Shown here: positions 1-381 of the stretch, piece after piece | How positions within the stretch are numbered: the stretch's first letter is position 1 | How the letters are laid out: every line of letters begins with the position of its first letter | Origin: Escherichia coli | GTDB taxonomy: Bacteria; Pseudomonadota; Gammaproteobacteria; Enterobacterales; Enterobacteriaceae | Assembly: GCF_003334255.1 (NCBI RefSeq) | Contig: NZ_QOWU01000251.1 | DNA: 381 nt | Reading direction: 5' to 3' (one strand) | Program-made: the position numbers and the translations under genes | Notes under the pieces: model-generated | The model's input: the letters and a program-made list of their open reading frames with translations, nothing else | What the model was told of the DNA's origin: nothing | Database searches by the model: none

Positions 1-381
1 CGATTTTTTGAAGCAATATGGTGATTTTGAAAATGGTATTCCTGTTCACGATACCATTGCCAGAGTTGTATCCTGTATCAGTCCTGCAAAATTTCACGAG
101 TGCTTTATTAACTGGATGCGTGACTGCCATTCTTCAGATGATAAAGACGTCATTGCAATTGATGGAAAAACGCTCCGGCACTCTTATGACAAGAGTCGCC
201 GCAGGGGAGCGATTCATGTCATTAGTGCGTTCTCAACAATGCACAGTCTGGTCATCGGACAGATCAAGACGGATGAGAAATCTAATGAGATTACAGCTAT
301 CCCAGAACTTCTTAACATGCTGGATATTAAAGGAAAAATCATCACAACTGATGCGATGGGTTGCCAGAAAGATATTGCAGA
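1..381 (+). CDS. ISAs1-family DDE transposase (H-repeat-associated protein, YhhI/YdcC/YbfL-like), internal fragment truncated at both ends; codon phase begins at nt 2
   Basis: Frame starting at nt 2 is open for 126 codons through nt 379, while frame 1 has stops at 22-24, 28-30 and 109-111. The translation ([22 protein letters not shown]...[76 protein letters not shown]) matches my recollection of the E. coli H-repeat-associated / ISAs1-family transposase, roughly residues 55-180 of a ~378-aa protein. All three minus-strand frames contain stops (reverse-complement stops at + positions 46-48, 78-80 and 134-136). Paralog cannot be determined from the fragment, so no gene symbol is given. Not verified by database search. 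Confidence 0.9.
1..381 (+). mobile_element. Internal part of an ISAs1-family insertion sequence (H-repeat / ISEc1-like); element boundaries and terminal inverted repeats lie outside the window
   Basis: The only gene content is the ISAs1-family transposase ORF. From established knowledge, such elements are about 1.3 kb with a single transposase gene, so the element should extend a few hundred bp upstream and about 0.7 kb downstream. GC of about 41.7% is below the typical enterobacterial backbone, consistent with a mobile element. Confidence 0.8.

What the first reader, a model, noticed from the sequence alone, without database searches (positions are those of the whole stretch)
12..380. Second completely stop-free reading frame (+1 relative to the transposase frame) across almost the whole window
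Codons phased from nt 3 show a TGA at 9-11 and then no stop for 123 codons (nt 12-380), with in-frame ATGs at 18-20, 33-35, 138-140, 162-164, 186-188, 216-218, 273-275, 285-287 and 351-353. The conceptual product starts hydrophobic ([25 protein letters not shown]...). For AT-rich DNA a stop-free alternate frame this long is unusual; frame 1 has several stops over the same span. I think this is most likely an artefact of the codon choice in the real frame, because the alternate frame is full of codons rare in E. coli (AGA x6, TTA x6, ATA x4, CTA x2) and no overlapping gene is known in ISAs1 elements to my knowledge.
Basis: seen in the sequence. Interest (0 to 1): 0.3.

Follow-up and report, generated by a model that had tools for sequence, protein, structure and literature searches.

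The report
Chance open frame inside transposase gene
The long stop-free second reading frame is really there, but it is a by-product of codon choice in an E. coli insertion-sequence transposase gene (yhhI, ISEc1) and not a hidden overlapping gene, so it is ordinary.

Summary
The window is nt 165-545 of yhhI, the ISEc1 (ISAs1-family) transposase gene, read in frame 2. Frame 3 has TGA at 9-11 and is then open for 123 codons to the window end. In the full gene it is open for 136 codons.

This is uncommon. It has P about 0.001-0.003 under synonymous-codon shuffles of this gene. About 1.4% of long E. coli genes show a +1 open stretch this long.

It is not a gene:
- The frame is closed in every relative outside the near-identical E. 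coli copies. There is 1 stop in E. albertii, 6-10 in six enterobacterial homologs, and 2-18 in 57 more distant ones (483 observed against 487 expected overall).
- Synonymous sites are no more constrained inside the stretch than outside.
- New +1 stops arise among E. coli copies at the neutral rate.
- No ribosome-binding site precedes the first ATGs.
- The conceptual product matches no Pfam or NCBIfam family.
- Database "proteins" that match it are frameshifted transposase pseudogene products.

The stretch is open because it is rich in isoleucine and poor in leucine, and ISEc1 uses ATT/ATC and GTT/GTC where relatives use ATA and GTA.

The parts
2..379 (+). Real coding frame: codons 56-181 of the ISEc1 (ISAs1-family) transposase YhhI
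   Evidence: No stops in frame 2. NCBIfam NF033564 scores 183.7 bits against a cut-off of 70. The window is 100% identical to annotated yhhI in many E. coli genomes.
9..11 (+). TGA stop that bounds the alternate (+1) frame on its 5' side
12..380 (+). Stop-free stretch of the +1 frame. It is 123 codons in the window and 136 in the full gene, ending at a TAA that would be window coordinate 420-422. Judged non-coding.
   Evidence: Extent. Not conserved. No synonymous constraint. No family match.
18..20 (+). First in-frame ATG of the alternate frame, with no Shine-Dalgarno motif upstream. Used as the start by some automatic gene calls (P0123, P0124, P0131).
33..35 (+). Second in-frame ATG, with no Shine-Dalgarno motif upstream. 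Start of gene call P0126.
206..218 (+). The only in-frame ATG (216-218) preceded by a GGAG (206-209) at suitable spacing. It would give a 68-codon product. There is no evidence of use.
   Evidence: coordinates read

Best explanation
The +1 frame is a non-coding 'shadow' open frame inside the ISEc1 transposase gene yhhI. It is open because of the transposase's own sequence.

A +1-frame stop can form only where a transposase codon ending in TA is followed by a codon starting with A or G, or a codon ending in TG is followed by a codon starting with A. This part of the protein is rich in isoleucine and poor in leucine. ISEc1 encodes its Ile and Val here almost entirely with ATT/ATC and GTT/GTC, so no such junction occurs over 136 codons.

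This state arose once, in the ancestor of the near-identical E. coli copies, and they all inherited it. It is a statistical outlier of a kind expected somewhere in any genome.

Shown here: the frame's extent, its absence in relatives, the lack of constraint, and the codon differences. Inferred: that the product is not made or used.
For: 1. Not conserved.
- The E. albertii copy (94% aa identity) has a +1 stop at window 210 (CGA to TGA).
- Six enterobacterial homologs at 72-81% nt identity carry 6-10 stops in the homologous stretch (Salmonella, Citrobacter, Entomohabitans, E. fergusonii, Enterobacter, Serratia).
- All 57 more distant, non-redundant homologs carry 2-18 stops.
- Over the 58 relatives the total is 483 observed against 487 expected from each gene's own synonymous shuffles, a ratio of 0.99.

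2. No synonymous constraint.
- Within E. coli copies, variable third positions number 19/136 inside and 38/242 outside (odds ratio 0.87, p = 0.76).
- pS is saturated at about 0.7-0.8 both inside and outside against the 72-81% nt-identity relatives.

3. Neutral behaviour of the alternate frame.
- Of 57 distinct substitutions among close copies, 4 create +1 stops, against about 3.2 expected.
- Only 9 of 57 are synonymous in the alternate frame, against 22% of all possible changes.

4. Mechanism is visible.
- At most sites where relatives have stops they encode the same residues with ATA or GTA where ISEc1 has ATT/ATC or GTT/GTC.
- The stretch has 6 Leu and 17 Ile. The rest of the gene has 24 Leu and 20 Ile.
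- Codons ending in TA inside the stretch number 3 in ISEc1 and 6-9 in those six relatives.

5. No gene signals.
- No Shine-Dalgarno motif precedes ATG 18 or 33.
- Promoter-like sites are at the chance level.
- The product matches no NCBIfam or Pfam family. No Rfam family matches.

6. Database matches are frameshift products.
- The 158 matches to the product are E. coli or Shigella frameshift fusions. They have the transposase N-terminus and switch frame at five different junctions.
- Most are 194 aa, which equals 58 + 136. A few are stand-alone automatic calls.

7. Base rate. In the same genome, 1.4% of long genes have a +1 open stretch at least this long.
Against: - The stretch is a real outlier for this gene. 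P is about 0.001 with the gene's own codon usage and 0.003 with E. coli usage. None of 11 low-GC genes in the sample reached 123 codons.
- All intact E. coli copies sampled keep the frame open. The three E. coli copies with +1 stops are themselves transposase pseudogenes.
- Against the E. albertii copy, synonymous divergence is lower inside the stretch than outside (pS 0.095 against 0.283). This is not repeated in other pairs and looks like mosaic divergence.
- Only 11 of about 23,500 E. coli copies were examined.
- Translation was not tested directly.
Confidence: 0.93

Rival explanations
1. A young overlapping gene specific to ISEc1. A 129-134-aa protein with a hydrophobic N-terminus would be translated from ATG 18 or 33 in the +1 frame of the transposase mRNA, in E. 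coli copies only.
For: - Stop-free length has P about 0.001-0.003.
- The frame is open in all intact E. coli copies sampled.
- Some gene callers predict it as a stand-alone protein (P0123 with 30 member sequences, P0124, P0126).
Against: - No Shine-Dalgarno motif before these ATGs.
- It is interrupted in the E. albertii copy, which is annotated as an intact ISAs1 transposase, and in all other relatives.
- No reduction in third-position variability within E. coli. Strong constraint would predict roughly a five-fold reduction, my estimate.
- Substitutions are mostly non-synonymous in this frame, and stops arise at the neutral rate.
- It is rich in codons rare in E. coli.
- No family match.
- The 74 out-of-frame internal starts reported in E. 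coli BW25113 and BL21 give products of 2-84 aa, so a product of about 130 aa is not among them (10.1101/520783).
Confidence: 0.03
2. The open frame is a landing frame for programmed ribosomal frameshifting. A fraction of ribosomes would shift by +1 and make a truncated protein: the N-terminal DNA-binding domain plus an out-of-frame tail. That protein would regulate transposition, as truncated products do in IS1 and IS3 elements.
For: - Frameshift-type proteins of 194 aa (N-terminal PF13808 domain plus the alternate-frame tail) are common in databases.
- IS1 and IS3 elements in the same genome do use programmed frameshifting (annotations).
Against: - The fusion proteins switch frame at five different positions (after residues 64, about 83-84, about 120 and about 123). 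They stem from indels in the DNA, not from one recoding site.
- The transposase is one uninterrupted ORF and needs no frameshift.
- The only slippery-looking run (T TTT TTG, window 4-10) lies upstream of the TGA at 9-11, so a +1 shift there stops at once. A -1 shift there stops after 5 codons.
- The landing frame is closed in all relatives.
Confidence: 0.01
3. The stop-free state reflects selection on the nucleotide sequence for another reason. Examples are directional adaptation of the transposase's codon usage to E. coli (loss of ATA, GTA and TTA codons) or a structured or regulatory RNA segment. Pure drift would then not be the cause.
For: - ISEc1 has fewer codons ending in TA inside the stretch (3) than relatives (6-9), and it uses host-preferred ATT/ATC where they use ATA.
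- With E. coli codon usage the probability rises from 0.001 to 0.003.
Against: - Outside the stretch ISEc1 still has 16 codons ending in TA, similar to relatives (14-22). Any adaptation is therefore not gene-wide.
- No Rfam match.
- No local drop in synonymous variability.
- The gene remains at 42% GC, far from the host mean of 52%.
Confidence: 0.03

Closest known systems
Shadow (spurious) long ORFs in alternate frames of bacterial genes
   Same: A long stop-free stretch overlaps a real gene. It is explained by the amino-acid and codon composition of the real frame, lacks conservation and start signals, and is occasionally mis-called by gene finders. In the same genome 3 of 207 long genes, including topA, hcaE and yacH, show +1 stretches of at least 136 codons.
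   Different: It occurs in a 42% GC gene, where such stretches are rarer than in genes of typical GC content. None of 11 low-GC genes in the sample reached 123 codons.
Documented same-strand out-of-frame nested genes (gndA within gnd in E. coli, comS within srfAB, rpmH within rnpA), as reviewed in 10.1101/520783
   Same: Same geometry: an ORF in another frame of the same strand, wholly inside a larger gene.
   Different: Those have start-site, peptide or genetic evidence, and an SD-like sequence is described for gndA. Here there is no SD motif, no conservation, no constraint and no reported initiation signal.
Programmed -1 frameshifting in IS1 and IS3 family transposase genes
   Same: An insertion sequence with sequence readable in two frames, and database proteins that join the two frames.
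   Different: IS1 and IS3 need the shift to make the full transposase from two ORFs at a fixed slippery site. ISEc1 has one complete 378-codon ORF, and the joined proteins come from indels at varying positions.

Membership tests
ISAs1-family transposase gene (host gene of the window) | Protein matches the curated family model above its cut-off | tested here: met
   NF033564 transpos_ISAs1: 183.7 bits against a cut-off of 70 for the 126 residues in the window. Full-length relatives carry PF13808 and PF01609.
ISAs1-family transposase gene (host gene of the window) | A single uninterrupted transposase ORF of about 370-380 codons | tested here: met
   yhhI is 378 codons with no interruption.
ISAs1-family transposase gene (host gene of the window) | Terminal inverted repeats and target duplications of the element | not tested
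   They lie outside the window and have no bearing on the finding.
Functional same-strand overlapping protein-coding gene | ORF stays open in homologous elements | tested here: not met
   1 stop in E. albertii, 6-10 in six enterobacterial homologs, and 2-18 in 57 distant ones. Observed-to-expected ratio is 0.99.
Functional same-strand overlapping protein-coding gene | Excess constraint at synonymous sites of the host frame within the overlap | tested here: not met
   Variable third positions are 19/136 inside and 38/242 outside (p = 0.76) within E. coli. pS is saturated inside and outside against the 72-81% nt-identity relatives. One pair (E. albertii) shows lower divergence inside, but this is not reproduced in other pairs.
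Functional same-strand overlapping protein-coding gene | Purifying selection on the alternate-frame product | tested here: not met
   9 of 57 substitutions are synonymous in the alternate frame against 22% possible. 4 stop-creating changes against about 3.2 expected.
Functional same-strand overlapping protein-coding gene | Start codon with a ribosome-binding site | tested here: not met
   No SD-like motif before ATG 18 or 33. Only the internal ATG 216 has a GGAG.
Functional same-strand overlapping protein-coding gene | Direct evidence of translation (ribosome profiling, peptides) | not testable with these tools
   yhhI, ybfD and ydcC are not mentioned in the main text of the Ribo-RET study, and its reported out-of-frame products are at most 84 aa. 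Its supplementary tables are not held. Reads from ybfD/yhhI were excluded as multi-mapping in another profiling study.
Programmed ribosomal frameshift site | A fixed slippery sequence at which the two frames are joined | tested here: not met
   Fusion proteins join the frames at five different positions. The T TTT TTG run at 4-10 lies before the TGA at 9-11.

The most novel reading that the evidence does not exclude
The ISEc1 lineage in E. coli has recently gained a de novo overlapping gene in the +1 frame of its transposase. It would encode a protein of about 130 aa with a hydrophobic N-terminus, too young to show conservation or measurable constraint.
Probability: 0.03. Interest if true: 0.5.

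Novelty: not a real feature. Interest (0 to 1): 0.06.

Why it matters
It matters mainly as a negative result. It shows that a 123-136-codon stop-free alternate frame, even in AT-rich DNA, is not enough to suggest an overlapping gene. It also explains why databases hold about 158 "proteins" matching this frame: they are frameshifted transposase pseudogene products and a few spurious gene calls. If the ORF were real, it would be the first accessory or overlapping gene in an ISAs1-family element and an example of de novo gene birth inside a transposase. The evidence points against this.

Tried and rejected
- Protein search with the alternate-frame product. I expected either nothing or an independent family. 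I found 158 hits, which turned out to be frameshift fusions and a few stand-alone calls restricted to E. coli and Shigella. This is not evidence for a gene.
- NCBIfam and Pfam on the product: no match.
- Rfam on the gene region: no match at E up to 1.
- Promoter and terminator scan: 3 promoter-like sites against 3.7 expected, and 2 terminator-like sites against 0.9 expected. Uninformative.
- The lower synonymous divergence inside the stretch against E. albertii was considered as a possible constraint signal. I rejected it because it is not seen in other pairs, and within E. coli p = 0.76.
- Literature. No paper in the library links ISAs1 to an overlapping gene. yhhI papers are incidental mentions. 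The Ribo-RET main text does not mention the gene, and its supplementary tables are not held. The PIRT-Seq paper does not mention it.
- A programmed-frameshift reading was considered and rejected because the fusion junctions vary.

Full report
**What the window is**

The 381-base window is 100% identical to part of yhhI in many E. coli chromosomes. Related copies are present in 5,311 of 5,426 complete genomes, with a median of 5 per genome. They are annotated ISAs1-like element ISEc1 family transposase and carry the gene names yhhI, ydcC and ybfD.

In strain C41(DE3) the gene lies just downstream of rhsB and yhhH, and the window is nt 165-545 of the 1,137-nt gene. Frame 2 of the window has no stop and matches the curated ISAs1 transposase model NF033564 at 183.7 bits, against a cut-off of 70. 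The window encodes residues 56-181 of the 378-residue protein.

**The observation**

- Frame 3 has TGA at 9-11 and then 123 open codons to nt 380.
- The nine in-frame ATGs lie where stated.
- The rare-codon counts are AGA 6, TTA 6, ATA 4 and CTA 2.
- Frame 1 has 15 stops.

In the full gene the open stretch is 136 codons and ends at a TAA 40 nt beyond the window. The rest of the gene's +1 frame has 18 stops in 242 codons.

**Is it more than chance?**

I permuted synonymous codons within the gene, which keeps the protein and the gene's codon usage. A +1 open stretch of at least 136 codons appears in 0.1% of 20,000 shuffles. With E. coli genome codon usage the figure is 0.34%. The expected number of stops in the stretch is 5.7 and 0 are observed.

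For an empirical base rate I took eight 50-kb pieces of the same genome. I used ORFs of at least 250 aa as gene proxies.
- 3 of 207 (1.4%) have a +1 open stretch of at least 136 codons.
- 7 of 207 have at least 123 codons open in the +1 or +2 frame. All seven are ordinary genes, for example topA, hcaE, yacH and yqjG.
- About 0.15% of 381-nt coding windows show a +1 stretch of at least 123 codons.
- None of the 11 genes below 46% GC reached 123 codons.

The stretch is therefore a real outlier for a 42% GC gene, but of a kind that a genome contains in the tens.

**Comparative test 1: does the frame stay open?**

I gathered 80 loci from one genome per species. I added six enterobacterial or E. 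coli relatives by exact protein look-up and eight E. coli paralogs or variants.

| Group | +1 stops in the homologous stretch |
|---|---|
| 11 near-identical copies (10 E. coli plus one 97%-identical metagenome contig; 95-99.5% nt identity) | 3 of 11 carry one stop, at window 354, 357 and 375 |
| E. albertii copy (94% aa identity) | 1 stop at window 210 (CGA to TGA) |
| Salmonella, Citrobacter, Entomohabitans, E. fergusonii, Enterobacter, Serratia (72-81% nt identity) | 6-10 stops |
| 57 non-redundant homologs at 41-59% aa identity | 2-18 stops |

The three E. coli copies with stops are transposase pseudogenes. The E. albertii species copy is annotated as an ISAs1 transposase of 372 aa. Two partial or frameshifted copies, from Pseudocitrobacter and Erwinia, have 5 stops each.

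Summed over the 58 relatives, 483 stops are observed against 487.2 expected from each gene's own synonymous shuffles. There is therefore no family-wide avoidance of +1 stops. The stop-free state is confined to one clade of near-identical copies and amounts to a single evolutionary event.

**Comparative test 2: synonymous constraint**

Against the six enterobacterial relatives at 72-81% nt identity, the proportion of synonymous differences is saturated at about 0.67-0.84 both inside and outside the stretch.

Among E. coli copies, variable third positions are 19/136 inside and 38/242 outside (odds ratio 0.87, p = 0.76).

One pair is different. Against E. albertii, pS is 0.095 inside and 0.283 outside. 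Binned differences show this is not reproduced in other close pairs, some of which are more divergent inside. I read it as mosaic divergence among repeated copies.

In this overlap geometry the transposase's third codon position is the second position of the alternate codon. Every transposase-synonymous change therefore alters the alternate product. Strong selection on that product should visibly reduce third-position variation, and it does not.

**Comparative test 3: behaviour of the alternate frame**

There are 57 distinct substitutions in the stretch among close copies. Four create +1 stops. Weighting by class (synonymous or not, transition or transversion), about 3.2 would be expected. Only 9 of the 57 are synonymous in the alternate frame, against 22% of all possible changes. 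The alternate frame evolves as unconstrained sequence.

**Signals and product**

No Shine-Dalgarno-like motif precedes ATG 18 or 33. Only the internal ATG 216 has a GGAG at suitable spacing, and it would give 68 codons. Promoter-like sites are at the chance level. No Rfam family matches. The 136-aa conceptual product matches no NCBIfam or Pfam family.

A search of 5.8 billion predicted proteins returned 158 matches, nearly all from E. coli or Shigella. Most are 194 aa and carry only the N-terminal PF13808 domain. Since 58 + 136 = 194, this is what a 1-nt deletion anywhere in the open stretch produces.

The sequences confirm it. They begin MELKKLMEH... and switch to the alternate frame at five different points. 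Two more switch back and forth between frames. Four stand-alone calls start at ATG 18 or 33, and one of them returns to the transposase frame at its end. These are pseudogene or assembly-error products and spurious gene calls, not a protein family.

**Translation evidence**

This could not be tested directly.
- The retapamulin start-site study of E. coli BW25113 and BL21 reports 74 out-of-frame internal starts, whose products are 2-84 aa. It does not mention yhhI, ybfD or ydcC in the main text (10.1101/520783). Its supplementary tables are not held.
- Another profiling study excluded ybfD/yhhI reads as multi-mapping (10.1101/109264). Absence of a report is therefore weak evidence.
- No paper in the library describes an overlapping gene in an ISAs1 element.

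**How the open frame arises**

A +1 stop needs a transposase codon ending in TA followed by a codon starting with A or G, or a codon ending in TG followed by a codon starting with A.

The stretch has 6 Leu and 17 Ile, against 24 Leu and 20 Ile in the rest of the gene. Only 3 of its codons end in TA, against 16 outside. The six enterobacterial relatives have 6-9 such codons in the same stretch.

At most sites where relatives have +1 stops they encode the same residues differently:

| Window position | Relatives | ISEc1 |
|---|---|---|
| 264 | ATA-AAA | ATC-AAG |
| 222 | ATA-AGT | ATT-AGT |
| 219 | GTA-ATA | GTC-ATT |
| 66 | GTA-GTT | GTT-GTA |

A few sites involve amino-acid replacements, for example Met-Asn in relatives against Met-His in ISEc1 at 240.

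**Verdict**

The pattern is real and moderately unusual. All the comparative tests that could have supported an overlapping gene came out negative, and the mechanism producing the pattern is visible in the codons. I put about 93% on a non-coding shadow frame and about 3% on a very young ISEc1-specific overlapping gene. Small remainders go to a frameshift landing frame or to selection at the nucleotide level. Interest is low.

Noticed in passing
window 4-10: T TTT TTG, read in the transposase frame as GAT TTT TTG, has the form of a -1 slippery heptamer. A -1 shift there would stop after 5 codons (frame 1: ...EAIW*). A +1 shift would hit the TGA at 9-11 at once. No evidence that the site is used.
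   Followed up: partly
L002 (E. albertii copy) against L001 1837-2973: Divergence from yhhI is uneven along the gene. Synonymous differences are 0.095 in codons 59-194 and 0.283 elsewhere. This suggests mosaic structure or gene conversion among H-repeat/ISEc1 copies.
   Followed up: partly
L086 56-1279 (E. coli, protein P0004, 407 aa): This transposase variant carries an in-frame tandem duplication of 87 nt. Gene nt 644-730 are present twice, which adds 29 residues.
   Followed up: no
proteins P0008, P0093, P0142, P0180, P0189: Several Shigella sonnei ISAs1 transposase fragments or frameshift products are named 'receptor' in NCBI records. This looks like an annotation error that has spread.
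   Followed up: no
L082 1477-1735 (Salmonella) and L083 1462-1727 (Citrobacter): A second, partial ISAs1 transposase segment (77-81% identical to yhhI) lies about 25-40 nt downstream of the intact copy. This suggests tandem or nested insertions.
   Followed up: no
L001 1346-1696, upstream of yhhI: Between yhhH and yhhI there is a pseudogene annotated 'HEAT repeat domain-containing protein' with an internal stop. It is probably a displaced Rhs-associated ORF remnant at the H-repeat junction.
   Followed up: no
window 340-358, minus strand (L001 2358-2340): A terminator-like hairpin with a T-rich tail lies on the antisense strand inside the gene. Two such sites were found in the region against 0.9 expected, so it is probably chance.
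   Followed up: no
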